Positions 1,720 to 40,800 of a stretch of DNA of 41,586 bases are shown piece by piece. The stretch is from positions 1-41,586 of IMG/VR virus record IMGVR_UViG_2778261450_000006; one strand, 5' to 3'. The stretch is from a virus (Duplodnaviria > Heunggongvirae > Uroviricota > Caudoviricetes). Below the pieces are notes generated by a model. That model saw nothing but the letters and a program-made list of their open reading frames with translations, was not told the origin of the DNA and made no database searches. A program made the position numbers and the translations under genes. Position 1 is the first letter of the stretch. The number at the start of each line of letters is the position of its first letter.

Positions 1720-1720
1720 T

Positions 1721-3469
1721 ATGACAGTGGCAAATTATAATTCTCTTGTCCAGAAAACTTTCTGCGAAAATGCAATTCGTTCCGTTGTCATGATTGATGA
1801 CGATTTTCTGACGTATTCTGAATCAATCAGGGCGTTGAATAACGAAGTTGATTTAGACTACAACAAAATTGACTCATCTAAACGAGCCGCTACTCTTGAG
1901 AGCTTTTTTCAATCTAAAAATATGATTTGTGATGTTGACAATGGTTCTGTTAATTTCGATGTGGATCGGATTAGAAAATCAGATCTTATTATTGTAGATT
2001 ATCATCTTGATAATAATGCACCTGATAAAACACTTAAACTATTACAAGATTTGAAAGACTCCGATCATTTAAATATGATTGTAATATATACTAGAGAGAA
2101 TTTAGAAACGGTTTGGATGCAGATATCATCGACTCTCAAAGGTGCTCTGGATATCAACAGCTTGATCATTGACTACGATAATGAAGATGTCCAAAGTTAT
2201 TGGGAAGACGTTGTATTACCGAACTTAAATGATAATGGTAATAAAGCTCTCACAAGAGATGAAACAATAGCCTATATTAAAGACAGTAAGCCTTGTAGAA
2301 GAATTAAAAGATTAATACATGATGATGCTGTGTTGGAGGATCAAAAGGATAAAAACTTCATTGCAAAAATGATTGCAGAATATGCTGTGTCTAGAAATGC
2401 AATTATTTCTAGCAACACATCTGGCAATGTCATTCGGGGTGATGAAAGCGGAGTAAAATGGATTCAATGTGGTAATATCTTTGTCTCCCTATTTCATAAG
2501 GTTCAAGATGATCATGAAAACGATGGAGATAGGATTTGGCAAACTCTCAATGATTCTCTCATTGAATGGAAACCATCTTATTATCAGTTAATAAAATCTG
2601 AAATTCAGAATGCAATCGAAGCTGAGGCTTTATCTTTTGTAAATCATTTGGCTAACGATCATTACGGTCAAGCTGCGTGGTTAAATGAGATATTAAAATC
2701 AGACTCGCCTGATATTAGATGTAGAAATATTGACTTTGTATTTGGTAATTTATCAGAAGAGCTTTATCAAAGACTTAAAAATAATAATACGCTGGATGAA
2801 TTTATCAAAAGTGTTTTTGATAGCTATTCAAATGAATACGCTAACAGCGGAGTTGCTGCATTGCTCCAATATTGCTCTTCAAAAATGGATCTGCCATCAA
2901 ATAATGATACTTATCACGAAATGTATCATGCTTTAAATATGAATTTGTCTTCAAAGAATTTTGAAGATGGTCATATTTCTACTGGCACTATTTTCTTTGA
3001 TACAGAGTCGAACAAATGGTATTTATGTGTATCTGCGGCATGTGATTTGGTTCCTACTCAGGGTAACGACCCTCACCATGTAAGATTAAGTCCGCACAGG
3101 CTCATTAAAGTTCTGGAGCTTTTTAACGCCAGTCAGAGTAAAGCATTGCCATTTGCTGAACATTCGAAATATATATATGTAATGCATAAAAATCAAAGAA
3201 AATATCTCTCTATTTTCGAAGGGGATAAAACGCTTCCTGTTGTTGATTATATGGTGGTGTTGAATCATGGAACAACAGTTGATGGCGAAGAAAAAAATAT
3301 TATTTCTGCCGTGTTTTTAAGTAATATGGATGGCAACGTGCAAAATGTTCCTGTCCGACTCAAACTTAAATCTCAACTGAGAACTGGTTATGCAGAAAGA
3401 TATCAGGCTATAGCGTCTCAGTATAGCTCAAGGATTGGTGTGGATTATGTATCAATGATGCTACCATAA
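1721..3469 (+). CDS. Receiver (REC) domain protein with ~450-aa C-terminal domain of unknown function (candidate effector)
   Basis: ATG at 1721 preceded by GGAGTGGAG (track ORF starts 1703). N-terminus has REC-like pattern VVMIDDD ... DLIIVDYHLDN ... NMIVIYT. No HTH or other recognisable output domain. Coupled to upstream kinase-like gene. Confidence 0.6.
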   Translation: MTVANYNSLVQKTFCENAIRSVVMIDDDFLTYSESIRALNNEVDLDYNKIDSSKRAATLESFFQSKNMICDVDNGSVNFDVDRIRKSDLIIVDYHLDNNAPDKTLKLLQDLKDSDHLNMIVIYTRENLETVWMQISSTLKGALDINSLIIDYDNEDVQSYWEDVVLPNLNDNGNKALTRDETIAYIKDSKPCRRIKRLIHDDAVLEDQKDKNFIAKMIAEYAVSRNAIISSNTSGNVIRGDESGVKWIQCGNIFVSLFHKVQDDHENDGDRIWQTLNDSLIEWKPSYYQLIKSEIQNAIEAEALSFVNHLANDHYGQAAWLNEILKSDSPDIRCRNIDFVFGNLSEELYQRLKNNNTLDEFIKSVFDSYSNEYANSGVAALLQYCSSKMDLPSNNDTYHEMYHALNMNLSSKNFEDGHISTGTIFFDTESNKWYLCVSAACDLVPTQGNDPHHVRLSPHRLIKVLELFNASQSKALPFAEHSKYIYVMHKNQRKYLSIFEGDKTLPVVDYMVVLNHGTTVDGEEKNIISAVFLSNMDGNVQNVPVRLKLKSQLRTGYAERYQAIASQYSSRIGVDYVSMMLP

Positions 3470-3540
3470 TTATTATATTTTAGGCGTGGTGATTTTTTTT
3501 CGCCATGCCTATTTTATATTTATCATCACAATGATGTTGT

Positions 3541-3957
3541 TTATTTTTGTTTAAGTCTTCTAAGCTTCATGCATTCTAATGAGAATAATAATAGAGTTGT
3601 GCTGTATATAAAGCCAGAGTTAGTTAATAACTTTAAATTTAATGCTTCAGGATTTTCACTGAGAAAGTGAAAGGCATAAACTAAGTATACAGCTAAAGTA
3701 GCCGTTCCAATTGTTGGTCCAATATCGCCTTGATCATGAGGTTCAAGGTTTACATTGAACTTGAAGATTAGCCATTCAAATCCCCAAGTAAAAAAAACAA
3801 CTAATATCATGGCTGCGAATAATTTCGCGATGTTATCTGCTGATGGATTCATCAGAACAGATTGTTTCTGAAAAAATTCACAAAGTGAGAGTCCGAAAAA
3901 AATAAAAAAAAGTGGTCTGGAACTAAATTTTTCAAAAACTTTGAATAGGGTTTCCAT
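3541..3957 (-). CDS. Small multi-pass membrane protein (hypothetical)
   Basis: 138-aa ORF with several hydrophobic stretches (LFFIFFGLSL, AAMILVVFFTWGFEWLIF, TATLAVYLVYAF, FIYSTTLLLFSL). Lies directly downstream of the P4-type integrase on the same strand. Confidence 0.45.
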   Translation of the reverse strand: METLFKVFEKFSSRPLFFIFFGLSLCEFFQKQSVLMNPSADNIAKLFAAMILVVFFTWGFEWLIFKFNVNLEPHDQGDIGPTIGTATLAVYLVYAFHFLSENPEALNLKLLTNSGFIYSTTLLLFSLECMKLRRLKQK

Positions 3958-3995
3958 TTTCTTTACCTTCAGGATTATATTAGCTATTCTGATAC

Positions 3996-5225
3996 TTAGG
4001 CTACCAGAGCATTTGATCTTTGAGCTTGAACGTAATCACTCCACCATTGCATCAAACTCTGTCGCTCTATCAGATATTCTGCACGATTGTATGCTGCGAT
4101 AATTTCATCTTTTTTCGAGTGGGCAAGCGCTGCCTCAAGAACTTCAGCTCTGAATTTACCAGACTCCTCTGCCGCTGTTCGTGCAATAGAACGCATACCG
4201 TGAGCTACAAGCTCGCCTCCGAACCCCATTCGGATGATAGCTGCGTTGGCTGTTTGTTCATGCATATGATTAAGAGGCGCTTTTATGCTGGGGAAAACCC
4301 ATTCTCTATGCCCACTTATTGATTTCATTAATTCAAGGATGCGCAAAGCTTCTTTACTCAAAGGAACTTTGTGAAGCTTTTTCATTTTCATGAAATCAGC
4401 AGGAATGTTCCAAATGCTGTTGGTTGTATCAATATCAGACCACCTTGCGCGAACGGCTTCACCCGGACGAACCCATGTCAACAATTGCCATTCAATTAGC
4501 ATACGTGTTTCCAACCGGATTGACGCATTCGTCAAAGATTCCATAAACCTTGGCAATTCGCTTGGGGGAAGGGCAGGCATATTTTGCTTTTTTGGTTTAC
4601 TGAATCTTTGACCAAGGTTGTCAGCCGGGTTGAACTCAATAAGTTCTTCAGTAGCTGCCCACCGGAAGATTTCATTCAGACGTGAAATGATACGGCGTAG
4701 AGTTTCCAATACGCCTCGTTGCTCAATAGGATCAAGGTGTTGTTTTAAGAGCTTAGGTCGGATCTCATTGATAGGGACATTACCCAGACCGGGAAAGACA
4801 TTTCTCTCTAAGCTGCGCCAGATGTCTGCTGCATGGTCTTGTGAGATACCTGATGTCTTTACCTTCTCATCTAACCATTTCCGCGCTACGGCTTGGAGAG
4901 TGTGCTCAGTAGCACTCTTTAATGCCTTCGCCTTATCGTTGTTATGGATTTGGGGATCAACACCATTTGCCAGAAAGGAGAGATATTCATCACGTAAGGC
5001 TCTGGCTCTTGCAAGGGTAAGGTGAGGATATGTCCCAAGGCTCATTTTGGTTCTTTTCTTGCTCACTGGTACTGCATACCTGAAATACCAATTTTTCTTG
5101 CCTCCTTTCGCCAAAGGAGCGATTCGTAGAATCAGACCATCACCGTCAAACAAGTTGATTTCTTTATCGGCTGGCTTGGTGCTTTTGATTTCAGTGTCAG
5201 TGAGCTTCTTAGCGATTTTTGCCAT
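3996..5225 (-). CDS. intA: P4-type tyrosine integrase (IntA/CP4-57-like)
   Basis: N-terminus MAKIAKKLTDTEIKSTKPADKEINLFDGDGL and C-terminal HGMRS...AHS...AYNRAEYL..QWW motifs typical of P4-family integrases. Start chosen at the internal ATG (5223-5225) with GAGGG RBS; track ORF extends to 5267. Adjacent to the 45-bp ssrA 3' fragment. Confidence 0.85.
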   Translation of the reverse strand: MAKIAKKLTDTEIKSTKPADKEINLFDGDGLILRIAPLAKGGKKNWYFRYAVPVSKKRTKMSLGTYPHLTLARARALRDEYLSFLANGVDPQIHNNDKAKALKSATEHTLQAVARKWLDEKVKTSGISQDHAADIWRSLERNVFPGLGNVPINEIRPKLLKQHLDPIEQRGVLETLRRIISRLNEIFRWAATEELIEFNPADNLGQRFSKPKKQNMPALPPSELPRFMESLTNASIRLETRMLIEWQLLTWVRPGEAVRARWSDIDTTNSIWNIPADFMKMKKLHKVPLSKEALRILELMKSISGHREWVFPSIKAPLNHMHEQTANAAIIRMGFGGELVAHGMRSIARTAAEESGKFRAEVLEAALAHSKKDEIIAAYNRAEYLIERQSLMQWWSDYVQAQRSNALVA

Positions 5226-5390
5226 TTTGGGACCCTCGGTTTTTGGACCCTTCTTAATGGGTCCCATTCAGGGTGCCATAACTCGTAGTTCTCAGCAATT
5301 CTCACTGGACGACAATAGACGTAAAAAAGCCCGCAGAGCTTGTGCTGTGTGGGCTTAGTAGACTTCATTGAACTTCAAACAACTAAAAAG

Positions 5391-5435
5391 TGGTGGAGCT
5401 GGCGGGAGTTGAACCCGCGTCCGAAATTCCTACAT
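5391..5435. repeat. 45-bp direct repeat identical to the 3' end of ssrA (att core; prophage attR and original island att)
   Basis: tggtggagctggcgggagttgaacccgcgtccgaaattcctacat is identical to 40527-40571; flanks diverge on both sides. Confidence 0.9.
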
Positions 5436-6215: not shown

Positions 6216-7232
6216 TTAAATTAAGTTATAAAGAGGGTTTTTTGTTACTGCATCCTCCAGGTGGTCTGGAGAGAAGTGTGCATAAATCATCGTCATTTTA
6301 ATATCTGAGTGCCCTAAAATATCACGTAAAACGAGTATGTTCCCACCGTTCATCATAAAATGGCTGGCAAATGTATGGCGCAGGACGTGGGTGCATTGGC
6401 CTTCCGGTAGTTCAATACCGGCCCGTTTTACCGCCCGTTCAAAGGCTTTTCTGCATGGTGTGAATAATTTCCCTCGGTTTTTGGGTAGCTCGTTGTACAG
6501 ATCCTGAGATATCGGTACGGTACGGTTTTTTTTACCCTTGGTCTTTGTATAGGTAATCCGGTATTTCGATAGTTGATGGCCCTGCAGGTTTTCAGCTTCA
6601 CTCCAACGAGCACCGGTTGCTAGGCATATTTTTGCAATCATTAGCAGACTGGGGCTTTGAGAATCAGCACAGGCATCCAGCAGACGTTTAATTTCCTCCG
6701 GGGTTAGGAACGCCAGTTCACCCTCCGTAATTTTAAATGTTGGAAGCCCGGCAAGCGGGTTGGGGGCTGACCAGTGGCCCAGCTTTTTCAGTGTACCAAA
6801 AACAGATGATAGGTTGCGCTGTTCAAGGTTTACCGTGCGGGGCTTAACGGGTGACATGAACGAGCCGTCTTCATTTTGGACCTCCCCCTTTAATCTGGCT
6901 TCCCGATATTTTGTGAAATCACCTGCTGTCAGCTCAGAGGCGATGGGATCGCCTAGACCATTACAGATAATTCTAAGTTTCGCCATCAGGCGTTTGGGGT
7001 CTGCGAGTGTTTGACCATATAGGGAATACCACTGCTCAATCACTTCTGATAATCGCCGCCGATCTTCCTTCTCACCAAGCCATGGCTTTTTGTTTACTTC
7101 GTTCATGGTGAAGTTTTCGAATGCTATGGCTTCGCCTTTCGTGGCAAATTGCTTACGCACGCGCTTGCCATTGCGTCCATTGGGATAGCACTCACACAAC
7201 CATTTTCCGTTCGGCTGTTTTCTGATGGTCAT
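6216..7232 (-). CDS. int: P2/186-family tyrosine integrase
   Basis: 338 aa; GRNGKRVRKQF...AFE N-terminus and C-terminal LATGARWSEA ... HVLRHTFASHFMMNGG ... LGHSDIKMTMIYAHF catalytic region, as in P2 Int. Confidence 0.9.
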   Translation of the reverse strand: MTIRKQPNGKWLCECYPNGRNGKRVRKQFATKGEAIAFENFTMNEVNKKPWLGEKEDRRRLSEVIEQWYSLYGQTLADPKRLMAKLRIICNGLGDPIASELTAGDFTKYREARLKGEVQNEDGSFMSPVKPRTVNLEQRNLSSVFGTLKKLGHWSAPNPLAGLPTFKITEGELAFLTPEEIKRLLDACADSQSPSLLMIAKICLATGARWSEAENLQGHQLSKYRITYTKTKGKKNRTVPISQDLYNELPKNRGKLFTPCRKAFERAVKRAGIELPEGQCTHVLRHTFASHFMMNGGNILVLRDILGHSDIKMTMIYAHFSPDHLEDAVTKNPLYNLI

Positions 7233-13717: not shown

Positions 13718-13737
13718 TACTGTAAATATAAACAGTG
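13718..13737. promoter_or_regulatory. LexA (SOS) box overlapping the promoter of the tum/dinI-like operon
   Basis: tactgtaaatataaacagtg is a perfect CTGT-N8-ACAG match, ~40 bp upstream of the 13778 ORF. Confidence 0.7.
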
Positions 13738-13777: not shown

Positions 13778-13966
13778 ATGCAGGACTATTTTTTGGAGTC
13801 TTTGAAGCTCCAGCGCATTGATTTTTTTCTTAAGCTTGTAGCGGCTAGTGAGTGTAGTGATGAAGAGAAGGGGCTGGCCCTGCAGTGGGTTTCTGAACTG
13901 ACAGATGAACTCATGGCAAAAATCAGAACCCACGAATACAACCGCTCAATGGATGTCATCAGCTGA
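13778..13966 (+). CDS. Small SOS-controlled protein, candidate Tum-like antirepressor N-terminal module
   Basis: 62-aa ORF with AGGAGG RBS directly downstream of the LexA box; position corresponds to 186 tum. Confidence 0.45.
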   Translation: MQDYFLESLKLQRIDFFLKLVAASECSDEEKGLALQWVSELTDELMAKIRTHEYNRSMDVIS

Positions 13967-13976
13967 GGTGACTTTT

Positions 13977-14210
13977 ATGCGCATTGAAATAATGATCGAT
14001 AAAGAGCAGAAGATTAGCCAGTCTACCCTGGACGCTCTGGAGTCAGAGCTTTACCGCAACCTGCAACCCATCTATCCCAAGACAGCTATCCGCATCCGTA
14101 AAGGGTCGGCAAACGGCGTTGAGCTGAGTGGCTTAAAGCTTGATGAAGACAAAAAGCGGGTGATGGAAATTATGCAGCAGGTTTGGGAAGACGACAGCTG
14201 GCTGCACTAA
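13977..14210 (+). CDS. dinI: DinI-family protein
   Basis: MRIEIMIDKEQKISQSTLDALESEL...EDKKRVMEIMQQVWEDDSW resembles E. coli DinI; ATG 13977 with GAGGTG RBS (track ORF starts 13905). Confidence 0.75.
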   Translation: MRIEIMIDKEQKISQSTLDALESELYRNLQPIYPKTAIRIRKGSANGVELSGLKLDEDKKRVMEIMQQVWEDDSWLH

Positions 14211-15319: not shown

Positions 15320-15364
15320 GCTTATGTCATGCAGGCGCATGAAAACCACTACATAAAGCGGGCA

Positions 15365-15383
15365 GGCGTGGCGGGGATACGAG
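15365..15383. other. Candidate cos (cohesive-end) site of the P2/186-family phage
   Basis: ggcgtggcggggatacgag resembles the P2 19-nt cohesive end GGCGAGGCGGGGAAAGCAC as recalled from memory. Confidence 0.35.
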
Positions 15384-15535
15384 CGCGCGCTAAGTCATAT
15401 AAGAGTTATATATTGATTTGATTGCTGGACATGCATACAGTATCGCTCTATCATCTAATAAATCTTAGAGTATTTGGCAATGTTTGGATAAAATGGAACC
15501 TAACTTATTCATAATCCGCTAAACAGGGATGTCAG

Positions 15536-16450
15536 ATGCCATACCAATTGGTAGAGCTTAGCCCCGTAGCTAACGATCTTGAACAGTTAGGAACCAAAGA
15601 GAAGTTTTGGTTCTATTTCTCCGATGACACTGTAAATTTGCAGTTGTTTAAGTACTCTAGGCCAGGTACTGGCGAGCATTGGTCTGAAAAGTGTGCTGCT
15701 GAGTTATGTCATTTGCTTAACATTCCACATGCTAGCTATGATTTGGCGCGATACAATGGTCGATTCGGTGTGGTGACTCAGAATATCATTCCATCTGGTT
15801 TCCGGATGGTAATGGGAAATGAAGTGCTTCACAGTTCGACATTCGATTATCCTGGGCCTTTACAAGCCGGGGAAAAGCCGGTAAGGGTCAGAGAACACAC
15901 TGTCACAAGGGTATTGGGTTGTTTGGATAGGGAATCTATCAAGCCTCCTCCGAGTGTATATGATCTAACCGGGCTAAATGCAGCAGATGTATTTTGTGGA
16001 TATTTGATGCTCGATGCACTTGTGAGTAATCAAGATCGCCATCATGAAAATTGGGCGATCATGCTTAACAATGAAACTGGTGAGCAGTTTTTGTGTCCAA
16101 CATACGATCATGCCGCTAGTTTAGGAAGGGAGATGTTAGATGATGAGCGTAACGAACGGCTTAATACTAAAGATAAAAATCGACAAATCCCATGTTTTGT
16201 AAGAAAAGCTCGCTCTGAGCTATTCAAAGCAAAAACTGATAAAAAGCCCTTGCTGACCGTTGAAGCATTTCAACATGCAGTTGAAGGGAGAGTTGCCGCT
16301 CGCGACCATTGGTTAGGTAAGTTGAGCGTTTTAACAGAAGATTCCATTACAGATGTGTTTAACCAAGTGCCTTCATCGTGTATATCCGACAGTGCACGTA
16401 GATTTGCAACGTTAATGGTAATGGAAAATCGCAGAAGGTTACTAGAATGA
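15536..16450 (+). CDS. HipA-like serine/threonine kinase core (lacks HipA N-terminal subdomain)
   Basis: P-loop-like GTKEKF near N-terminus and catalytic motif LDALVSNQDRHHENWAIM matching the HipA D-x-H-x-x-N region; YDHAASLG follows. AT-rich leader. Confidence 0.7.
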   Translation: MPYQLVELSPVANDLEQLGTKEKFWFYFSDDTVNLQLFKYSRPGTGEHWSEKCAAELCHLLNIPHASYDLARYNGRFGVVTQNIIPSGFRMVMGNEVLHSSTFDYPGPLQAGEKPVRVREHTVTRVLGCLDRESIKPPPSVYDLTGLNAADVFCGYLMLDALVSNQDRHHENWAIMLNNETGEQFLCPTYDHAASLGREMLDDERNERLNTKDKNRQIPCFVRKARSELFKAKTDKKPLLTVEAFQHAVEGRVAARDHWLGKLSVLTEDSITDVFNQVPSSCISDSARRFATLMVMENRRRLLE

Positions 16451-17187
16451 CTAATACAAACTCCGTTTACGTCGCATGGCAGGCACCAGATACCAGAGAC
16501 TGGCATGTTGTTGGTAACTTGCAAGAGCGCAAATCGGGGTATGTTTTCAGGTATACCAAAGGTGCTCTTAAATCTACTAAATTTACAAAGTTTAGCGGCA
16601 TGAGTGATGTTCGTGAAACTTATGTTTCGGAAGAATTGTTTCCTCTTTTTAAAAATCGCCTTTTATCACCGAGACGTCCAGAGTATCCGAGTTTCATTAA
16701 ATGGCTTGGATTTGAAGAAGATAAGGTAAATCCTATCGATATTCTTGCTCGCTCGGGAGGCTTACGAAGCACTGATCAGCTGCAGATTTTCAAAAAAATT
16801 GATGTTGATTCTGATGGTAACTTTGAGCATTTTTTCTTCTTACATGGACTTGGTTACTTAAATAGCTTAGCTAATGCTCGTGTATCTGAATTGAAACCGG
16901 GGCAAATTTTGCGTCTTTGCTTGGATCTTCAAAATGAATACGATGGGGATGCTGTTGTCGTTCGTGCAGATAAACCAGCTGAAATCGTTGGTTACTGCCC
17001 TAGGTATTTAAGTAATGATATCAAGAAGATGTTATTGGATGATCCAAAATCAATCACTTTAACGGTCGAAAAGATTAGCGATGATGCTCCTCATAACTAT
17101 CGGTTATTATGTAAATTATCAGGAGTACTAAGCCAAGCCTGTCAATCGACGCTGATTCCTCAGGATGAGTTTGAACCTATTGAGTAA
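16447..17187 (+). CDS. HIRAN-domain protein with N-terminal HipA-N/HipS-like region
   Basis: C-terminal LKPGQILRLCLDLQNEYDGDAVVVRADKPAEIVGYCPRYL matches the HIRAN signature; start overlaps kinase stop (ATGA). Confidence 0.65.
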   Translation: MTNTNSVYVAWQAPDTRDWHVVGNLQERKSGYVFRYTKGALKSTKFTKFSGMSDVRETYVSEELFPLFKNRLLSPRRPEYPSFIKWLGFEEDKVNPIDILARSGGLRSTDQLQIFKKIDVDSDGNFEHFFFLHGLGYLNSLANARVSELKPGQILRLCLDLQNEYDGDAVVVRADKPAEIVGYCPRYLSNDIKKMLLDDPKSITLTVEKISDDAPHNYRLLCKLSGVLSQACQSTLIPQDEFEPIE

Positions 17188-17221: not shown

Positions 17222-18262
17222 TTATGGGACTATATCTAGCGAGTAGGTATTAAACTGTATCGCCTCCTTGCCAAGCCAATCATTCATCTCCTGTAATCGC
17301 TTTTGTAGTGGCATTAGCTCATTTCGGACGAATACACGGCTTGCCTTTTCCACATCCCCAAACCCCCCAACATTATTCGGCATAATCCCCATCATTTGCG
17401 GCGGCACGCGGTGCGCTGCCATCATGTCATCCCGACTCACGTTCTTGATGTTAAGAAATTCATCCTTCGCCGCGACTTCTGACAATGGGATGATCTGAAG
17501 CCCGTCTTTTTTGCCGTTAGGTGAGTACATAAACAGGTTGCGGAAGTTGCCTGGACCTTTGGCGCTTTTCATCGCGTTGCGGAGGTTGTTCACATCCTCC
17601 TGATTCTGCGCGGCATCGGTCATGTACATGATGAAGCCTGCATGGCTGCCGTTAATGTAATACTTACGGCGGAACAACGTGGCGGACTCGTTGAGCAGGG
17701 CTGACGGAATGGCAGAAAGATAACCGGGCAGGCCGTAGATCTCCTGGTTGATATCCGGTTCCATCAGATGAAAGATGCTGCCTTTCGTGAACTGATACGG
17801 CTGCGTAGTCATGCCGTATTGCACAAACCAGTAGGTATCCAGGTCTAACCCGCGTCGGGTGTATTTTGCCAGAGCAGGCTCAAGGGCGATAACTTCACCG
17901 AAGCGGTTCGTGCGTTTCTCCAGGTAGGCGTTACCAAATACCAGATAGTCCTGCACAAAACGTGAAAAAGCCTGCTGGCTGAGCAGCGGGTGGGGGATGT
18001 AGGTACTGGTCAGAATGTTGCATTTCACCGCAATTGGTGAACTGTGATGCACGGCGGCGCGGAAGGTGCGCGCCAGTCCGTCAAAGCTTACTGGCGGCTC
18101 ATACCAGCGATCTGTCTGTACGCATTCCACATAGTCCAGTAGTTCGCGGCGGTCCAGAACAGGAACGGGATCACCGAAGCTGAATGCTTCGGCTGTAGTT
18201 TGACTTTTATGCTGGATCTGGTTCGTCGACGCAGCGCGGTTCTTCTTACTCTTTCCCATCAA
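17222..18262 (-). CDS. Q: Portal protein (P2 gpQ family)
   Basis: 346 aa, size and position (leftward, paired with P, divergent from O) match P2 Q. Confidence 0.9.
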   Translation of the reverse strand: MMGKSKKNRAASTNQIQHKSQTTAEAFSFGDPVPVLDRRELLDYVECVQTDRWYEPPVSFDGLARTFRAAVHHSSPIAVKCNILTSTYIPHPLLSQQAFSRFVQDYLVFGNAYLEKRTNRFGEVIALEPALAKYTRRGLDLDTYWFVQYGMTTQPYQFTKGSIFHLMEPDINQEIYGLPGYLSAIPSALLNESATLFRRKYYINGSHAGFIMYMTDAAQNQEDVNNLRNAMKSAKGPGNFRNLFMYSPNGKKDGLQIIPLSEVAAKDEFLNIKNVSRDDMMAAHRVPPQMMGIMPNNVGGFGDVEKASRVFVRNELMPLQKRLQEMNDWLGKEAIQFNTYSLDIVP

Positions 18263-20025
18263 AAAATCTCCACAATATTACTGGTATTGGCGGACTCGCC
18301 CTGCAGTGGTTCGTTAAACAGTGCGTGCATTGTTGCCCAGGCCAGATCGGCGTGGCTGGCTTCTTCGCTGCGGCTGGCTTCATAGGTTGGGCGGTTGCCA
18401 CTGGCGGTGGTTGCGCGACGGATTGCCATGAATGACTGCGCAATGTCGGTGTGCCCGGCGTCAAACTCCAGACGGCGGTGGCTGATAATGTCGTAGGCCT
18501 TGAGTACCAGGGCGTTTTTAACGTTGGGGTTGTAGACAAACTCCCGGACGGCAGGAAAGAACGCTTTCACGTTCTCGTAAACCCCGTGACCAACGCCGGT
18601 TGAGTCGATACCGATATAAGTCACGTTGTACTGTTCGGTAAGTTTTTTGATGGCGTCAGCCTGGGCGCGGAAGTCCATCCCGCGCCACTGGTGACGCTCA
18701 AGAATGCGGAACTTACCACCCGGCACGGCTGGCGGTGCCACCACCACGCATCCAGCGCTGTCGCCGTTTTGCGTACCTTTTGCCGGGTCATAACCGATCC
18801 ACACTTCGCGCCAGCCAAACGGGCGCAGCGCCAGTGCATGAAAGTCGGTCCAGACTTCCCAACTGTCCACCATGCACGCCTGCAGCTCGCTGAGCGGAAA
18901 CACGGACGCGAGATCGTCCACAAACTCGCACATCAGCAGGTTCTGGTATTCGTCTGGGCTGTACTCCATGCGTAGCTGGTCGAGGTCGAACAGGTTACAG
19001 CCGCCGCGCACCGCATCTTCCACGGTGACTATCTGGCGGTATTGCCCGTCTGCGCACAGCAGGCCGGGGGCCAGATTGCTGTGGGACAGGTCGATGTCCA
19101 CCTTATCGGCTTTGTTGCGCCCACGGTTGAACAGCGCACCGGACCAGAACGGATAAGCACTGTGTGTCAGACTGGATGGCGTGGAAAAATAGGTTTGTCG
19201 CCATTTTTTGTGAATAGCCATACCGGAAGCCACTTTGCGCAGCTCCTGGAATTTCGGTATCCAGAAATATTCATCCAGATACAGGTTGCCGTGGTAACTC
19301 TGGGCCGTGCGGGCATTGGTGCCGAGGAAGTAAAGCGTGGCCCCGTTAGGAAGCACCATCGGATCGCCTTTCAGCTCCACCTCCACTTCTTTGGCAAAGT
19401 CGATGATGTACTGTTTAAAGACGTGGGCCTGAGCCTTGCTGGCAGAAAGGAAAATCTGGTTACGCCCGGTCAGCAGGGCGTCAATCAGGGCTTCACGGGC
19501 AAATTAAAAGGTCGCGCCGATCTGGCGTGACTTCAGCAGGTTGCGGATGCGGTTGGTTTTTCCGGCTTCCCACCAGTGGCGCTGGTAGTTGAACATAGAG
19601 GAATGGAAGATTTCTTCCAGTTTCTCAATCTGTTCATCGGTGAAAACATTCTTTTCCGGCTGACGACGTGGGCCTTTGTTGCGGTTGGCAACGTTAGGGT
19701 TTAAGTCGGCTTCGTTGCCGCCATTGTTAAACTTGCCGATCCGCGCGTGGCGCTCAGACTGGCGTGCCAGCAGGTCAATTTCTTTGAAATCTTTCCCTTC
19801 TTTGTGCTCCTTCATAATGAGCTGGCAGTAGCGTGCGGCGGTGGTGAGCTGCATCTGATCCAGCGGCCCATAGTCACCCCACTTGTCGCGTTTTTTCCAG
19901 CTGTGAACGGTTGCAACTTTCTCGCCCAGCATTTCAGCAATGCGGGCGACGCGGTATCCCTGAAAGTACAGCAGCATGGCCTGCCGACGGGGATCGAGAT
20001 CTGCGGGTGTCAGTGTGGTGTTCAT
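18259..20025 (-). pseudogene. P: Terminase ATPase (large) subunit gpP interrupted by an in-frame TAA
   Basis: ORFs 19504-20025 and 18259-19386 are in the same frame; a single TAA at 19504-19506 (minus strand) is the only stop, and the 39 codons between it and the next Met (FAREALIDALLTGRNQIFLSASKAQAHVFKQYIIDFAKEV) continue the protein. Combined length 588 codons. Confidence 0.8.
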
Positions 20026-20071: not shown

Positions 20072-20089
20072 TGTGTGGTTGTTGGTACA
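20072..20089. promoter_or_regulatory. Candidate Ogr-dependent late promoter element (TGT-N12-ACA) in the P/O divergent region
   Basis: tgtgtggttgttggtaca lies between divergent P and O, as for P2 late promoters. Confidence 0.45.
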
Positions 20090-22079: not shown

Positions 22080-22730
22080 ATGAGCCTGAGTCCCGCACGG
22101 CAGCATCGCCTGCGCGTTCAGGCTGAACAGGCCGCCCGTGAGGGCGGCAGCGTTCGCCACGCGTCGGGCTATGACCTGATGCTGCTGCAACTGGCGGAAG
22201 ACCGCCGCCGTCTCAAGGGCGTTCAGTCCACGGTCAAAAAAGCGGAGATTAAGGTGGAACTGCTGCCGAAGTACGCCGCCTGGGCAGAGGGTGTCCTGAC
22301 TGCCGGAGGCGCACAGCAGGATGACGTGCTGATGTACGTGATGCTGTGGCGCATTGATGCCGGAGATTATGCCGGGGCGCTGGAGATCGGGCGTCACGCC
22401 CTGCGTCATGGCTGGGTGATGCCGTTAGGTAACCGCAACGTGCAGACCGTGCTGGCAGAGGAAATGGCAGATGCAGCCCAGAGCGCAATGCTTGCCGCCA
22501 CCGGCTTTGATGCCGATCTGTTGCTGCAGACCCTGGAGCTGACAGACGGTATGGATATGCCGGACCAGTCACGGGCGCGTCTGCATAAAGCGATTGGCGC
22601 TGTCCTGAGTGAAAGCAACCCGGCTTCCGCCCTTAATCATCTCAACCATGCGTTACAGCTCGATCCCCGCTGTGGCGTGAAAAAAGACAAACAGCAGCTG
22701 GAGCGCAGACTGCGCAATGACAGCCGCTGA
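22080..22730 (+). CDS. M: Terminase small/endonuclease subunit (P2 gpM family)
   Basis: 216 aa following N. Confidence 0.85.
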   Translation: MSLSPARQHRLRVQAEQAAREGGSVRHASGYDLMLLQLAEDRRRLKGVQSTVKKAEIKVELLPKYAAWAEGVLTAGGAQQDDVLMYVMLWRIDAGDYAGALEIGRHALRHGWVMPLGNRNVQTVLAEEMADAAQSAMLAATGFDADLLLQTLELTDGMDMPDQSRARLHKAIGAVLSESNPASALNHLNHALQLDPRCGVKKDKQQLERRLRNDSR

Positions 22731-25613: not shown

Positions 25614-26600
25614 TTACTCTTTGTAAATTCGATCTGGCTCGTTGTACTCTATTTCTCTCAGTCGACCATTTTTAATGGTGAAATTACCTTTTTCTGATTT
25701 AAATTCCCCACCACATTTACAAGGCTTGTTATCAGAAAGAGTGTAGTTTTTTAGTATTAGTTCATCATCGTTGTCAAAGGTGGGGATTATTTTTTTAGTT
25801 TCAGCGCATTGCGTGCACTTAACTTGCAATTCCGGGAGTGTGGTACAAGCTGTAAGGCTCAGTTCGACATTCTCTGGAACAATGTAATATCCTAGCAATG
25901 GTGTCCCACGACTTTCTGAAACACCTTTGTATGTATTGGTTATGCCTCCAATAAATGCAAGGATTTCATCATACGCTTGAGTATTACGCATTGTTACCCA
26001 GCAATCTCGATCTTCATAACTATACTCACGACCTGCAACGCAAATTGCTGTAACGTAACGAAAGTCTTCTTTGTATATTTTTTTATACCTTTCGGCTTCA
26101 GTAATTCCATTTGGTGATAAGTCACTACTTAGAGCAAATATTACCGAGCGAAGTTTCTCTATTTTGTGTTGGATTAGTTTGCCTGATTCATCTTTTATTC
26201 CAGGTAAGTAACCGAATTTCTCATTAAGTTCTTTTGCACTTGAGTGTGCAGAGCTGAGTTCCGATGAACTTAATGTGGTTTTTACCTCAATGGTATATAG
26301 AACTGATTCTATTGGGAATAACCCTGTGGCACCATCGATTAATATCGGAGGGAGTATTGATTTATTGTAAATAATAATATCTATTTGAGGTGATAACTTT
26401 CCTGAATACTGTTCAATGATTTGCCCTGTGCCAATGCCAACATCTGCGGGCAAAAGAGGTCGAAATAGTTGACTTAATAATATTTCTAGAACAGCTCCCT
26501 TAACACCCTGGTGGGAAAATCCTGCAGCACTTTTGGCTTGAGCAATCGCCGATTCGACCTTCCCTCTAAGTAAAGCCTGATACTGGTTCTTATTTTTCAT
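25614..26600 (-). CDS. Cargo protein: PD-(D/E)xK-like nuclease fold with C-terminal zinc-ribbon (candidate anti-phage defence gene)
   Basis: 328-aa antisense ORF between S and V, strongly AT-rich against a GC-rich late operon. Motifs PQIDIIIYN ... ESVLYTIEVKT (D ... E-x-K) and C-terminal CTQCAETKK ... CKCGG cysteine cluster. Confidence 0.6.
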   Translation of the reverse strand: MKNKNQYQALLRGKVESAIAQAKSAAGFSHQGVKGAVLEILLSQLFRPLLPADVGIGTGQIIEQYSGKLSPQIDIIIYNKSILPPILIDGATGLFPIESVLYTIEVKTTLSSSELSSAHSSAKELNEKFGYLPGIKDESGKLIQHKIEKLRSVIFALSSDLSPNGITEAERYKKIYKEDFRYVTAICVAGREYSYEDRDCWVTMRNTQAYDEILAFIGGITNTYKGVSESRGTPLLGYYIVPENVELSLTACTTLPELQVKCTQCAETKKIIPTFDNDDELILKNYTLSDNKPCKCGGEFKSEKGNFTIKNGRLREIEYNEPDRIYKE

Positions 26601-29142: not shown

Positions 29143-30644
29143 GCACAAAATTTTATACCCTGCTGACGGATATTGGCGCGGCGAAACTTGCCAGCGCCGC
29201 CGCGCTCGGTGTGCCTTTAAAAATTACCCATATGGCGGTCGGCGATGGCGGCGGAACATTGCCAACGCCGGACGCAAAGCAGACAGCATTAGTAAATGAG
29301 AAACGCCGGGCTGCGCTGAATATGCTCTATATCGACCCGCAGAACAGCAGCCAGATTATTGCCGAACAGGTGATCCCTGAAAACGAGGGCGGTTGGTGGA
29401 TACGTGAAGTGGGCTTGTTTGATGAGTCCGGGGCATTGATTGCCGTGGGCAACTGCCCGGAAAGCTATAAGCCACAACTGGCTGAAGGCAGCGGGCGCAC
29501 CCAGACCGTGCGCATGGTGCTGATTACCAGCAGCACGGACAATATCACACTGAAAATCGACCCTGCCGTCGTGCTGGCAACCCGCAAGTATGTGGATGAC
29601 AAAGCACTGGAGTTGAAGGTGTACGTGGATGACCTGATGGCAAAACATCTTGCCGCACCGGACCCGCATTCACAGTATGCACCCAAAGAAAGTCCGACGT
29701 TTACCGGGACACCCAAAGCGCCAACGCCAGCAGCAGGGAATAACACCACGCAGATTGCGACCACCGCGTTTGTTCAGGCGGCTCTGACGGCTCTTATTAA
29801 TGGTGCGCCAGCCACGCTGGACACGCTGAAAGAAATAGCCGCAGCCATTAACAATGATCCGAAATTCAGTACCACCATTAACAATGCACTGGCACTGAAA
29901 GCGCCGCTGTCGAGTCCGGCACTCACCGGAACGCCAACCGCACCTACTGCGGCACAGTCGGTCAACAATACACAGATTGCCACCACGGCATTTGTGAAAT
30001 CGGCGATTGCGGCAATGGTGGGTTCTGCACCTGCGGCACTGGATACACTGAACGAACTGGCGGCGGCGCTGGGGAATGATCCGAACTTTGCCACGACAAT
30101 GCTTAATGCGCTGGCAGGTAAACAACCGCTGGACAATACGCTGACTAATTTGAGTGGAAAGGATGTCGCTGGTCTTCTCGCATACCTTGGTTTGGGAGAA
30201 GGTTCTCCAGCTATTGGCGTTCCGTTCTTCTGGCCGTCCGCTGCAATGCCAAATACTGTAATCGACAGCTGGTCCAGTATGGTGTTTTTGAAGTTCAACG
30301 GCGCGAAATTCTCTGCCACTGATTATCCTGTGCTGGCGAAAGTGTTTCCTTCGCTGGTATTACCTGAAGCCCGCGGTGATTTCATTCGTATCTGGGATGA
30401 CGGGCGAGGTGCAGATGGTGGTCGTGAATTATTAAGCTGGCAGGCAGCTACAAACTTTTCTCAGTTTGCCGGGAATATAGGCGAAGGTGCGGGACACGCA
30501 ATTAACTTTCATGATGGCATCGCCGGAAATCAGCCAGGATTTTCACGATTTAATTTCACCAGTAACTCTGTGGGTGATGGTGTGAATTTTGTTGCTGTCA
30601 GACCGCGAAATATTGCATTTAACTTTCTGGTGAGGGCTAAATAA
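29139..30644 (+). CDS. H: Tail fibre protein H (constant N-terminal region plus currently expressed variable C-terminal cassette)
   Basis: 501 aa with repeated tail-fibre motifs (TQIATTAFV ... NDPKFSTT; NTQIATTAFVKSAIAA ... NDPNFATT). The recombination site encoding LGLGE lies at 30175-30200 inside the gene. Confidence 0.9.
   Translation: MSTKFYTLLTDIGAAKLASAAALGVPLKITHMAVGDGGGTLPTPDAKQTALVNEKRRAALNMLYIDPQNSSQIIAEQVIPENEGGWWIREVGLFDESGALIAVGNCPESYKPQLAEGSGRTQTVRMVLITSSTDNITLKIDPAVVLATRKYVDDKALELKVYVDDLMAKHLAAPDPHSQYAPKESPTFTGTPKAPTPAAGNNTTQIATTAFVQAALTALINGAPATLDTLKEIAAAINNDPKFSTTINNALALKAPLSSPALTGTPTAPTAAQSVNNTQIATTAFVKSAIAAMVGSAPAALDTLNELAAALGNDPNFATTMLNALAGKQPLDNTLTNLSGKDVAGLLAYLGLGEGSPAIGVPFFWPSAAMPNTVIDSWSSMVFLKFNGAKFSATDYPVLAKVFPSLVLPEARGDFIRIWDDGRGADGGRELLSWQAATNFSQFAGNIGEGAGHAINFHDGIAGNQPGFSRFNFTSNSVGDGVNFVAVRPRNIAFNFLVRAK
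30175..30200. repeat. Invertase crossover site (hix/gix/cix-like 26-bp site) inside tail fibre gene H
   Basis: ttctcgcatacc-TT-ggtttgggagaa; the 14 bp ttggtttgggagaa is repeated in inverted orientation at 31980-31993. Confidence 0.6.
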
Positions 30645-31237
30645 TGAAACCTGTTTTTGATGAAAATGGGCTGGCTACAGTGCCGGGCGATATGCGTTGT
30701 TTTTATTATGATGCTGAAACATCTGAGTATACGGGCTGGTCTGATGAATATATTAATACTGGCGTAAGTATGCCCGCCTGTTCCACTGGTATTGACCCTG
30801 GCGAAAACATTCCGGGAAAAGTGGCAGTATTTACGGGTAAGGGATGGAGCCATGAAGAAGACCATCGCAATGAGACTGTTTACTCAACAGAAAATGGCGC
30901 AGCTGTTACAGTGGATTATATCGGTGCCATCAAAGACGGTTATGTCACGCTTTCACCGTTAACGCCATACGATAAATGGGATGGTGAGAAATGGGTGACG
31001 GATACCGAGGCACAGCATAGCGCCGCAGTAGACGCGGCAGAAGCACAACGTCAGTCACTGATTGATACTGTAATGGCTTCCATTAGTCTGATTCAACTGA
31101 AATTGCAGGCCGGACGGAAACTGACGCAGGCAGAAACAACCCGACTTAACGCCGTGCTGGATTACATTGACGCGGTGACGGTAACAGATACCAGCACCGC
31201 GCCGGATATCATCTGGCCTGAACTGCCGGAGGCGTAG
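30644..31237 (+). CDS. G: Tail fibre assembly protein (P2 gpG/Tfa family), currently expressed copy
   Basis: 197 aa directly after H; C-terminal motif LDYIDAVTVTDTSTAPDIIWPELP shared with the inverted copy. Confidence 0.8.
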   Translation: MKPVFDENGLATVPGDMRCFYYDAETSEYTGWSDEYINTGVSMPACSTGIDPGENIPGKVAVFTGKGWSHEEDHRNETVYSTENGAAVTVDYIGAIKDGYVTLSPLTPYDKWDGEKWVTDTEAQHSAAVDAAEAQRQSLIDTVMASISLIQLKLQAGRKLTQAETTRLNAVLDYIDAVTVTDTSTAPDIIWPELPEA

Positions 31238-31628
31238 GCCATTCAATATCTGGCGCACTGGAAGTATCGACCAGCTCCAGTGCGTCCAGATAATCCAGCC
31301 ACAAATTATATTGCGCCAGTTCCTCACCTTTCAGACGACCAATAGCCGCTTTACCAGGCCATTGCCTGCTGTTCATGTGCTCGTTGGCTTCATTAATAAG
31401 TTTTCCTTTTTTCAACTCTGCCAATGCAATAAGGTTTTCTTTTGATAAAGGTGGTTGCTCTGTCAAAACCGGATATCCCTCCTGATTGCTGACTATTTTC
31501 ATGCCATTATCCTGACCATCCAGTAGTGACAGCCATTCATCCGTGGTTATCTCAACAGCATCTGAAGGTGCTTTATTTAAATCGGTAAAAAAACCATTTT
31601 CTTTTTGTGAATAGAAGTATCTGTCCAT
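31209..31628 (-). CDS. Alternative tail fibre assembly protein (inverted copy)
   Basis: 139 aa on opposite strand; C-terminus LWLDYLDALELVDTSSAPDIEWPTP parallels the + strand Tfa; 3' ends overlap convergently. Confidence 0.75.
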   Translation of the reverse strand: MDRYFYSQKENGFFTDLNKAPSDAVEITTDEWLSLLDGQDNGMKIVSNQEGYPVLTEQPPLSKENLIALAELKKGKLINEANEHMNSRQWPGKAAIGRLKGEELAQYNLWLDYLDALELVDTSSAPDIEWPTPPAVQAR

Positions 31629-31631
31629 TTA

Positions 31632-31991
31632 TCAATCTCCAAAAGCAATCCAGTAAGCAAAAGGATTTATTCCTTGCTCAGTCACAGATGACATCAGGGA
31701 AAATTGCGATGGTGAAACAGGTAATGCTGCAAAACTAACCATTGTTGACACACCTGACCGTGCATTATCGTACGATGCAACAACACAATAATTGGTATTG
31801 CTGAAAGATATCGGCAGGGTGATATTTACAGGTGAGCCTAATGGCCCTGATGCTGATATTCCCATTTGAATGATGGTTCCATCAGGCAATTTTCTCCAGC
31901 GATTAGAACTCGGATTTCTTTTCCAGGCTGACATATCCGGTATCTGATTTTCTCCTGTGCCTACATCCCTTTTCGCCGCTTCTCCCAAACC
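31632..31991 (-). CDS. Alternative tail-fibre C-terminal cassette (promoterless; fused to H constant region after inversion)
   Basis: Minus-strand frame reads ...GLGEAAKRDVGTGENQIPDMSAWKRN... from the crossover site. No independent start expected; the Met in the track ORF (to 32033) lies beyond the site. Confidence 0.6.
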   Translation of the reverse strand, partial: GLGEAAKRDVGTGENQIPDMSAWKRNPSSNRWRKLPDGTIIQMGISASGPLGSPVNITLPISFSNTNYCVVASYDNARSGVSTMVSFAALPVSPSQFSLMSSVTEQGINPFAYWIAFGD

Positions 31992-32005
31992 AACGTTTAT
32001 GAAAA
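31980..32005. repeat. Invertase crossover site (inverted partner of 30175-30200)
   Basis: ttctcccaaacc-AA-cgtttatgaaaa; reverse complement shares ttggtttgggagaa with the H-internal site. Confidence 0.6.
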
Positions 32006-32060
32006 TGCAGAGATAACGGCTAACTGGCATCATCTCCGGTTTTTATTCAGGGGGATGATC

Positions 32061-32627
32061 ATGCTTATTGGCTATGTACGCGTGTCAACAAATGACCAGA
32101 ACACCGATTTGCAACGTAATGCACTGAACTGCGCGGGATGTGAGCGGATTTTTGAGGATAAAATCAGTGGCACTAAGTCCGACAGACCGGGGCTGAAAAA
32201 GCTGCTCAGGACACTATCGGCAGGAGACACGCTGGTTGTCTGGAAGCTGGACAGGTTGGGGCGCAGTATGCGGCATCTTGTTACGCTGATAGAGGAGTTG
32301 CGCCAGCGTGGTGTGAATTTCCGAAGCCTGACTGACAGTATTGATACCAGTACCCCAATGGGCCGTTTCTTTTTTCATGTCATGGGTGCCCTGGCTGAAA
32401 TGGAACGCGAACTGATAGTTGAACGTACCAGGGCAGGGCTGGCTGCAGCTCGTGCCAAAGGCAGAGTAGGTGGACGCCGTCCTAAGTTGACCACCGAACA
32501 GTGGGCACAGATTGGGCGTTTACTCGAGGCCGGAGAATCAAGACAGCGTATTGCACTGATTTTTGATGTGGGTGTTTCCACAATTTATAGAAAATTTCCG
32601 GCAAATAAGAGTAATGAATCCCCCTGA
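32061..32627 (+). CDS. Serine DNA invertase (Hin/Gin/Cin/Pin family)
   Basis: MLIGYVRVSTNDQNTDLQ with catalytic Ser in YVRVST, resolvase core and C-terminal HTH (GVSTIYRKF). ATG 32061 with GGGGG RBS (track ORF starts 32055). Confidence 0.9.
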   Translation: MLIGYVRVSTNDQNTDLQRNALNCAGCERIFEDKISGTKSDRPGLKKLLRTLSAGDTLVVWKLDRLGRSMRHLVTLIEELRQRGVNFRSLTDSIDTSTPMGRFFFHVMGALAEMERELIVERTRAGLAAARAKGRVGGRRPKLTTEQWAQIGRLLEAGESRQRIALIFDVGVSTIYRKFPANKSNESP

Positions 32628-40526: not shown

Positions 40527-40571
40527 TGGTGGAGCTGGCGGGAGTTGAACCCGCGTCCGAAATTCCTACAT
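40527..40571. repeat. 45-bp att core (3' end of ssrA), direct repeat of 5391-5435
   Basis: Exact 45/45 identity; it is the 3'-terminal 45 nt of the tmRNA gene. Confidence 0.9.
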
Positions 40572-40767
40572 CCTCGGTACTACATGCTTAGTCAGTCTTT
40601 ACATTCGCTTGCCAGCTGCGGACGGACACGCCACTAACAAACTAGCCTGATTAAGTTTTAACGCTTCAACCCCAGGCAGGGCTTCCACGCGATCTCTTTT
40701 GGGTTTGACCTCTCTTGATCCCCGTCCTAAGAGCGGAGGCTAGGGAGAGAGGGCTCTAAGCAGGTTA

Positions 40768-40800
40768 TTAAGCTGCTAAAGCGTAGTTTTCGTCGTTTGC
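40768..40800 (-). other. tmRNA tag-peptide reading frame (ANDENYALAA, stop)
   Basis: Minus-strand GCA AAC GAC GAA AAC TAC GCT TTA GCA GCT TAA inside ssrA. Confidence 0.9.

What the first reader, a model, noticed from the sequence alone, without database searches (positions are those of the whole stretch)
18259..20025. Terminase ATPase gene P interrupted by a single in-frame ochre codon, so the prophage is likely packaging-defective
The two minus-strand ORFs covering gpP are in the same frame, separated only by TAA at 19504-19506. The 39 codons after the stop continue a terminase-like sequence before the next Met. From memory, P2 gpP has Tyr at the corresponding position (GATFYF), so this looks like a TAC/TAT to TAA point mutation. 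All other structural genes appear intact, suggesting recent inactivation or domestication while cargo genes are retained.
Basis: partly seen in the sequence, partly recalled or inferred. Interest (0 to 1): 0.6.

Follow-up and report, generated by a model that had tools for sequence, protein, structure and literature searches.

The report
Nonsense mutation in prophage terminase gene
A single base change has put a stop codon early in the DNA-packaging motor gene of an otherwise complete P2-type prophage of E. coli, which most likely leaves the prophage unable to make infectious particles; this is ordinary, very recent prophage decay (or, less likely, a base-call error), not a new kind of system.

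Summary
On the minus strand, 20025..18259 is a 588-codon homologue of P2 gene P, the terminase large (ATPase) subunit. Its codon 174 is TAA (19506..19504). In 1767 nt, the only difference from the intact alleles of E. coli CI5 and 442/2 is C->A at gene nt 522 (G->T at + strand 19504), which turns TAC (Tyr) into TAA. P2 and 186 also read KSRQIGATFYF here.

The stop lies 12 residues into the Terminase_6N ATPase domain. Neither fragment can be a working terminase.

Every other protein of the viable phage Cartapus has a full-length, stop-free counterpart in the window. The cos site, both 45-bp att repeats at ssrA, the late-promoter activator site and a LexA box are all present.

The TAA allele was found only in the window's own source, draft assembly GCA_002549415.1. 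It is absent from 1140 complete E. coli genomes that carry the site, from IMG/VR and from JGI metagenomes.

Other gpP lesions occur elsewhere at a background rate, about 3% of the IMG/VR copies checked. My verdict is a strain-specific, recent loss-of-function mutation. Sequencing error is not excluded, and nothing here indicates selection or domestication. Interest is low.

The parts
18259..20025 (-). Gene P homologue (terminase large/ATPase subunit), 588 codons, pseudogene because of one internal stop
   Evidence: Pfam on the Tyr-restored protein: Terminase_5 11-68 (3e-27), Terminase_6N 162-382 (3e-65), Terminase_6C 410-571 (2e-49). 63-64% identical to P2 gpP and 186 orf12, and identical to the CI5 allele apart from codon 174.
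19504..19506 (-). Ochre codon TAA = codon 174; the mutated base is + strand 19504 (T here, G in intact alleles)
   Evidence: The intact alleles checked at this base read TAC: CI5, S21, 442/2, Cartapus and 80 of 80 IMG/VR loci. The next base is T (UAAU context).
19507..20025 (-). N-terminal fragment that would be made (173 aa): gpP-type helix-turn-helix domain, linker and P-loop-like KSRQIGAT
   Evidence: Called as a separate 173-aa gene in the source assembly.
18259..19503 (-). Untranslated remainder of gene P (codons 175-588); the first possible restart is GTG 19386 or GTG 19380
   Evidence: Called as a 373-aa 'Terminase_6N, Terminase_6C' gene in the source assembly. It lacks the first 52 residues of the ATPase domain.
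17222..18259 (-). Portal gene Q homologue (345 aa); its ATG overlaps the TGA of gene P by one base (TGATG), so it lies downstream in the same operon
   Evidence: (96% to the Cartapus portal, no stops). P2 has the same P-Q operon layout and the same 1-nt overlap.
20072..20089 (-). TGT-N12-ACA dyad in the P/O divergent intergenic region (late-promoter activator site of P2 type)
   Evidence: Read directly. The P2 record annotates an activator binding site for pO and pP at the equivalent place. That the dyad is the Ogr consensus is from my own knowledge.
22080..22730 (+). Gene M homologue (terminase small subunit), intact
   Evidence: 216 of 216 aa aligned, 97.7% to Cartapus, no stops.
15333..15391 (+). 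cos site, identical to the annotated cos of phage Cartapus
   Evidence: 159 of 159 nt identical across the Cartapus genome ends.
5391..5435 (+). attL: 45-bp direct repeat of the 3' end of ssrA
   Evidence: 45 of 45 identical to 40527-40571.
40527..40571 (+). attR: 45-bp repeat inside the 3' end of the tmRNA gene (40527-40889, minus strand)
13718..13737 (+). LexA-box-like palindrome TACTGTAAATATAAACAGTG upstream of a 62-aa gene and a DinI-like gene (186 tum-type arrangement)
   Evidence: It is the only CTGT-N8-ACAG in the window, but one match is within chance expectation (0.57). Its function is inferred from position.

Best explanation
A genuine, very recent, strain-specific point mutation changed Tyr174 (TAC) of the terminase large subunit gene to an ochre stop (TAA). 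The change is a G->T transversion at + strand 19504. The gene sits in an otherwise complete, 35-kb, 186/P2-type (Elveevirus-like) prophage integrated at ssrA. Translation ends after 173 residues, just past the P-loop-like KSRQIGAT and 12 residues into the ATPase domain. The product therefore has the N-terminal DNA-binding-type domain but no ATPase core and no C-terminal nuclease. Any restart product lacks the P-loop.

Shown: the lesion, its uniqueness, and the intactness of everything else.

Inferred: on induction the prophage can still excise, replicate, express late genes, build proheads and tails, and lyse the cell. It cannot cut cos or package DNA, so it yields no infectious particles and cannot supply terminase to a P4-type satellite. 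Expression of the downstream portal gene may also fall through polarity. No selection needs to be invoked, because terminase is not used during lysogeny, so the mutation is neutral for the lysogen.
For: The lesion and its wild-type state. The domain map places the stop at residue 174 of 588, inside Terminase_6N (162-382).

The allele is absent elsewhere. None of 1140 complete E. coli genomes that carry the 61-mer has it. It has no hits in JGI metagenome contigs or IMG/VR. All 80 IMG/VR loci fetched read TAC. Twenty-five contigs with the identical portal and the same cargo genes all carry a 588-aa gpP.

The window is 100% identical over 20.5 kb to GCA_002549415.1 contig NOCP01000026.1, and the index lists that contig in 3 samples.

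The rest of the prophage is intact compared with the viable phage Cartapus, including M, Q, O, N, L, the tail genes, int, gpA and ogr, with cos identical. The att repeats are perfect.

P2 DNA packaging requires gpM and gpP (PMC7552001). No tRNA gene, and so no suppressor, lies in the window. UAAU is the strongest E. coli termination context (my own knowledge).
Against: The source is a draft WGS assembly, and neither read depth nor sequencing platform is visible here. I could not establish whether the '3 samples' are independent. No phenotype is available. The rest of the source genome could not be examined for a second P2-like prophage that could supply gpP in trans, or for an ochre suppressor. 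The assignment of KSRQIGAT as the Walker A motif rests on my memory of T4 gp17 and lambda gpA motifs. PDB sequence searches gave no terminase hit to confirm it.
Confidence: 0.8

Rival explanations
1. Base-call or assembly error: the strain really has TAC, and the prophage is fully functional.
For: The allele is seen only in one draft assembly. It is the sole difference from intact alleles in 1767 nt. G->T / C->A is the signature of oxidative damage artefacts in library preparation (my own knowledge).
Against: Consensus substitution errors are rare in short-read assemblies at normal depth, and damage artefacts occur at low allele fraction, so they seldom reach the consensus (my own knowledge). 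The index reports the same contig in 3 samples. The site is not a long homopolymer. Real gpP lesions do occur at a measurable rate in other assemblies (2 of 64 in IMG/VR; several), so a real mutation is not improbable a priori.
Confidence: 0.13
2. The mutation is real, but the prophage still spreads. gpP could be supplied in trans by a co-resident or superinfecting P2-like phage that recognises the same cos. The allele could be repaired by recombination with such a phage. Or the stop could be read through by a host ochre suppressor (a tyrT-type suppressor would even restore Tyr).
For: cos, att, int and all other genes are intact, so only gpP is missing. A terminase-defective O157 prophage (Sp4) is packaged, most likely by the terminase of another prophage with a near-identical cos (PMC2669165). 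Some E. coli genomes carry 2-3 copies of this gene (1278 places in 1231 genomes).
Against: Only about 4% of carrier genomes have more than one copy. No tRNA gene lies in the window. Natural isolates rarely carry ochre suppressors, and UAAU terminates efficiently (my own knowledge). The rest of the source genome could not be searched.
Confidence: 0.06
3. Adaptive domestication: loss of terminase was selected. The host would then keep the prophage's defence cargo and immunity (and perhaps free contractile tails) without releasing infectious phage.
For: The cargo genes are present and intact: PDC-M03 A+B next to cos, and a DUF6602 / PD-(D/E)xK protein between S and V. Independent lesions of gpP are found in other assemblies, three of them at or beside the same codon. 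A divergent IMG/VR element has TAA at the same codon.
Against: A terminase null does not stop induction from killing the cell, since the lysis genes are intact, so the benefit is unclear. The allele is confined to one assembly and has no descendant diversity. No second lesion has accumulated. In IMG/VR, control Tyr codons give the same background (1, 0 and 0 true hits against 1), and both true hits lie in heavily decayed remnants. No indels occur at the site in IMG/VR or JGI metagenomes. The look-up that found the clustered lesions was biased towards codons 144-215.
Confidence: 0.04

Closest known systems
Escherichia phage Cartapus (Peduoviridae, Elveevirus; OV696611.1 / NC_070909.1)
   Same: The gene order is the same and most proteins are near-identical. 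Many are 100% identical, including FI, FII, E, U, D, ogr, R, L and holin (T is 99.8%). gpP is 99.7% identical. The cos is identical and the lysis-lysogeny module is 186-like.
   Different: Cartapus gpP has Tyr174 and is a complete 588-aa protein. The cargo next to cos differs (DUF4145 against PDC-M03 A+B), as do the cargo between S and V, the cI allele (51%) and the tail-fibre tip.
Intact gpP alleles in E. coli prophages (for example WP_001098431.1 in strain CI5, NZ_CP011018.1; strain 442/2, CP076282.1)
   Same: 1766 of 1767 nt are identical. 442/2 also shares the portal and the PDC-M03 cargo (99.6% over 7 kb).
   Different: They read TAC at codon 174. The CI5 prophage sits at a different attachment site (ybjL/rcdA) and is mosaic elsewhere.
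Phage P2 gene P and phage 186 orf12 (terminase large subunit); classical P2 conditional-lethal nonsense mutants in head genes
   Same: The same three-domain protein at 63-64% identity, with an invariant KSRQIGATFYF. The same P-Q operon, with a 1-nt overlap, divergent from the O operon. A nonsense codon in P is functionally what a laboratory P amber mutant is (my own knowledge).
   Different: This is a natural ochre allele in a prophage of a sequenced isolate, not a laboratory mutant. The phage belongs to a different genus from P2 and 186.
Defective prophages with single-gene packaging lesions (for example Sp4 of E. coli O157 Sakai, terminase small subunit gene nu1 disrupted by an IS)
   Same: An otherwise largely functional prophage that lacks its own terminase activity (PMC2669165).
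   Different: The Sp4 lesion is an IS insertion in the small subunit gene of a lambdoid phage, and packaging in trans was shown experimentally. Here the lesion is a point mutation in the large subunit of a P2-type phage, with no experimental data.

Membership tests
P2-type terminase large subunit (gpP; Pfam Terminase_5 + Terminase_6N + Terminase_6C) | N-terminal gpP-type helix-turn-helix domain (Terminase_5) | tested here: met
   residues 11-68, E 3e-27, full model coverage; encoded upstream of the stop.
P2-type terminase large subunit (gpP; Pfam Terminase_5 + Terminase_6N + Terminase_6C) | ATPase domain and RNaseH-like nuclease domain encoded in the same frame | tested here: met
   on the sequence with Tyr restored: Terminase_6N 162-382 (3e-65) and Terminase_6C 410-571 (2e-49). 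Alignment to P2 and 186.
P2-type terminase large subunit (gpP; Pfam Terminase_5 + Terminase_6N + Terminase_6C) | Uninterrupted reading frame giving a single polypeptide of about 588 aa (needed for a functional member) | tested here: not met
   TAA at codon 174. By sequence it is a member of the family, but a pseudogene.
P2-type terminase large subunit (gpP; Pfam Terminase_5 + Terminase_6N + Terminase_6C) | ATP-dependent cos cleavage and DNA packaging together with gpM | not testable with these tools
   Needs induction and packaging assays. The requirement for gpM and gpP is taken from PMC7552001.
Peduoviridae (P2-like) prophage, complete | Hallmark genes L, M, N, O, P, Q and T present | tested here: met
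   all seven have full-length homologues. P is the only one with a stop. The hallmark list is from PMC13100340.
Peduoviridae (P2-like) prophage, complete | cos site, integrase and flanking att repeats | tested here: met
   cos 15333-15391 is identical to Cartapus. Integrase 6216-7232. 45-bp att repeats at 5391-5435 and 40527-40571.
Domesticated prophage / tailocin-like element | Loss of head or packaging genes with tail and lysis genes conserved under purifying selection across a host lineage | tested here: not met
   The head genes are all intact. The lesion is confined to one assembly. No lineage is available in which conservation could be measured.

The most novel reading that the evidence does not exclude
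Codon 174, at the P-loop edge of P2-type terminase genes, might be a recurrent inactivation site. Besides this TAA, a 12-nt deletion that creates TAA, a +1 lesion and a +2 lesion sit at the same codon in three unrelated assemblies. A 64%-identical IMG/VR element also has TAA at the same codon. If that clustering is real, it would point either to a sequence-context mutational hot spot or to repeated selection for terminase-null prophages that keep their defence cargo.
Probability: 0.05. Interest if true: 0.45.

Novelty: already known. Interest (0 to 1): 0.1.

Why it matters
The main value is practical. Gene-content tools would score this prophage as intact, but it is one base away from the viable phage Cartapus and is probably a dead end for particle production and for helping P4-type satellites. 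It illustrates the first step of prophage decay, a single lesion with nothing else yet lost. It could serve as a natural 'P ochre' control if the strain is available. It does not open a new biological question.

Tried and rejected
1. Hot spot at codon 174. Three other assemblies have lesions at or next to the codon. However, the look-ups that found them only return lesions in codons ~144-215, or exactly at 173. IMG/VR and JGI metagenomes show no indel variants at the site. Stop-codon scans at three control Tyr codons gave 1, 0 and 0 true gpP hits against 1 at codon 174, and both true hits lie in multiply damaged remnants. I rejected the idea as unsupported and kept it only as the low-probability novel case.

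2. Contigs ending exactly after codon 173 (L006-L013). I considered a repeated mobile element inserted at the site. I rejected this because the contigs end inside pure gpP sequence with no foreign bases. The exact-length look-up selects such ends, and other partial lengths are also common.

3. Programmed recoding or readthrough. There is no reason to invoke it. The wild type has a sense codon in the relatives whose sequence I checked at this base, the context is UAAU, and no suppressor tRNA lies in the window.

4. A functional split terminase. I rejected it because no start codon exists for 39 codons after the stop, so any C-terminal product lacks the first 52 residues of the ATPase domain.

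5. PDB sequence searches to anchor the Walker A assignment gave only spurious collagen and Wza hits. Literature searches for the T4 and lambda motifs, and for the assembly accession, found nothing.

I replaced it with an N-containing pattern.

Full report
**1. The observation**

Reading the minus strand from 20025 gives ATG AAC ACC ... CAG ATC GGC GCG ACC TTT TAA TTT GCC CGT GAA. The TAA occupies 19506-19504. The ORF list shows 19504..20025 (173 aa) and 18259..19386 (375 aa, GTG start) in the same frame. Translating 20025..18259 straight through gives 588 sense codons, one internal stop at codon 174, and the natural stop. The 39 codons after the stop contain no ATG, GTG or TTG. The coordinates and description in the finding are therefore exact. 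One correction: the downstream ORF begins at a GTG, not at a Met ATG.

**2. What the gene is**

With Tyr restored at codon 174, the protein matches three Pfam families:
- Terminase_5 (gpP-type N-terminal helix-turn-helix), residues 11-68.
- Terminase_6N (ATPase), residues 162-382.
- Terminase_6C (RNaseH-like nuclease), residues 410-571.

It is 63-64% identical to P2 gpP and to 186 orf12. All three share an invariant KSRQIGATFYF.

The stop falls 12 residues into the ATPase domain, directly after KSRQIGAT. From my own knowledge of the T4 gp17 and lambda gpA motifs, I take KSRQIGAT to be the deviant Walker A loop. I could not confirm this here, because PDB sequence searches gave no terminase hit.

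**3. What the mutation is**

The closest alleles in complete E. coli genomes are 99.9% identical.
- Against strain CI5, the only difference in 1767 nt is gene nt 522, A here and C there: TAC (Tyr) -> TAA. On the + strand this is G->T at 19504.
- Strain S21 differs at that base and one other.
- Phage Cartapus differs at 51 bases, of which only two change the protein: this one and E215D.
- Strain 442/2 shares the same portal and the same cargo genes, and differs in gpP by this base alone.

**4. Where the window comes from, and how widespread the allele is**

The window is 100% identical over 20.5 kb to contig NOCP01000026.1 of the draft assembly GCA_002549415.1. The index lists that contig in 3 samples.

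A 61-nt query centred on the TAA matched 1140 complete E. coli genomes, none without a mismatch. The exact TAA-bearing sequence is absent from JGI metagenome contigs and from IMG/VR. The same 29-mer with any base at the mutated position hits at least 120 IMG/VR contigs. All 80 that were fetched have C, and 62 of 64 with the whole gene in view are intact.

The exact portal protein of this prophage is listed in 386 index blocks. In the 25 contigs read, gpP is a 588-aa gene. The allele is therefore private to the source strain or clone.

**5. The rest of the prophage**

I translated all 46 annotated proteins of the viable phage Cartapus and searched them against the window. Every one that has a counterpart aligns full length, or up to a mosaic boundary in the tail-fibre region, with no stop codons. 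The only exception is gpP, with one stop.

- The Cartapus cos site and its flank are 159 of 159 nt identical to the window. This places cos at 15333-15391.
- A perfect 45-bp direct repeat of the 3' end of ssrA lies at 5391-5435 and at 40527-40571. It delimits a prophage of about 35 kb.
- The P/O intergenic region carries a TGT-N12-ACA dyad at 20072-20089 (read). P2 annotates its late activator site at the equivalent place.
- The single CTGT-N8-ACAG in the window lies just upstream of a 62-aa gene and a DinI-like gene. This is the arrangement of the SOS-controlled tum region of 186 (my own knowledge).

The element thus looks one base away from a working, probably SOS-inducible phage.

**6. Consequence (inferred)**

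P2 DNA packaging requires gpM and gpP (PMC7552001). A 173-residue product has no ATPase core and no nuclease. A restart at GTG 214 or 216 would lack the P-loop and the first 52 residues of the ATPase domain. UAAU is an efficient terminator (my own knowledge), and no tRNA gene is in the window.

I therefore expect induction to give excision, replication, late gene expression, proheads, tails and lysis, but no cos cutting, no filled heads and no infectious particles. The prophage should also give no terminase to a P4-type satellite.

The portal gene starts one base inside the stop codon of P (TGATG), as in P2. The nonsense codon leaves about 1.2 kb of untranslated message ahead of it, so portal expression may also be lowered by polarity. 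This last point is inference only.

**7. Rivals**

(a) Base-call error. This cannot be excluded for a draft assembly, and the change is the only difference from intact alleles. Consensus substitution errors are rare, though, and the contig is reported in three samples. I give it about 0.13.

(b) Rescue in trans, by recombination or by suppression. There is precedent for packaging of a terminase-defective prophage by a neighbour's terminase in O157 Sakai (PMC2669165). Only about 4% of carrier genomes hold more than one copy of this gene, and I could not inspect the rest of the source genome.

(c) Selected domestication. Nothing measured supports it. The lysis genes are intact, so a terminase null still dies on induction. 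The allele has no population spread.

**8. A lead I followed and dropped**

Looking up the 373-aa C-terminal product and the 173-aa N-terminal product returned other assemblies with independent gpP lesions:
- a CAG->TAG nonsense at codon 148;
- a +1 at nt 588;
- a -1 at nt 599;
- larger deletions;
- three lesions at or next to codon 174: a +1 complex change, a +2 insertion, and a 12-nt deletion that creates TAA.

A degenerate scan also found TAA at the same codon in a 64%-identical IMG/VR element. This looked like a possible hot spot, but several points argue against it:
- The look-ups can only return lesions in codons ~144-215, or exactly at 173.
- No indel variants of the site exist in IMG/VR or JGI metagenomes.
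- The same kind of stop scan at three control Tyr codons gave 1, 0 and 0 genuine gpP hits.
- Both genuine hits, L152 and L157, lie in remnants with other deletions or several stops.

The clustering is within what background decay and ascertainment can give. I keep it only as a 5% 'novel case'.

**9. Verdict**

The finding is accurate, and its main interpretation is well supported. It is an ordinary event: one recent nonsense mutation that turns an otherwise complete P2-type prophage into a probable packaging-null. This is an already-known kind of prophage decay. Interest is low (0.1). The decisive checks are a read pile-up at the base and an induction experiment.

Noticed in passing
window 15536-16450 (+) and 16447-17187 (+): The two-gene cargo between cos and the portal gene matches the PADLOC candidate defence system PDC-M03 (A: E 2e-122; B: E 3e-93). 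In Pfam, B has a HIRAN domain and A a weak HipA_C-like hit. The same pair sits at this position in many E. coli prophages whose gpP is intact.
   Followed up: partly
window 25614-26600 (-): A 328-aa DUF6602 protein is inserted in the opposite orientation between tail genes S and V. PADLOC matches it to PD-(D/E)xK / NucC-like nuclease models (E 7e-32). Cartapus has a different small gene at this spot.
   Followed up: partly
window 1-5267: Left of attL lies a second, tandem ssrA-associated island. It has a P4-type tyrosine integrase (3996-5267, minus strand), a 138-aa ORF, and a pair of overlapping genes with HEF_HK/HATPase_c (1-1719) and Response_reg_2 (1703-3469) domains. None of these has a PADLOC hit.
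   Followed up: no
L005 (ERR13370085), L016 (ERR4791153), L022 (SRR25629214); gene nt 519-532, equivalent to window 19494-19507: Three unrelated assemblies carry independent lesions at or next to the same codon 174 of gpP: a 12-nt deletion that creates TAA, TTTTAC->TTTTTTC, and TAT->TATCG. Ascertainment bias and negative controls argue against a true hot spot, but these were not tested on an unbiased data set.
   Followed up: partly
L152 (IMGVR_UViG_3300031134_000035) 198-226 (-): A divergent P2-like element (gpP N-terminus 64% identical) also has TTT TAA TTT at the homologous codon. The same element has lost the region from mid-capsid gene N to the holin gene, so it is a decayed remnant.
   Followed up: yes
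window 13718-13737 (+): A LexA-box-like palindrome TACTGTAAATATAAACAGTG lies upstream of a 62-aa ORF (13778-13963) and a DinI-like gene (13977-14207). This suggests 186-type SOS induction through a Tum-like antirepressor.
   Followed up: partly
window 30644-32627: An invertible tail-fibre segment: alternative fibre-tip and assembly genes on the minus strand (31209-31628, 31632-32033), next to a Gin-type DNA invertase (32055-32627) that is 100% identical to that of Cartapus.
   Followed up: no
L006-L013: Eight short Logan/ENA contigs end within 0-2 nt after codon 173 of gpP. The exact-length look-up explains this, but the 173-aa partial is seen on more contigs (27) than any of the other partial lengths listed for the cluster (at most 11).
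   Followed up: partly
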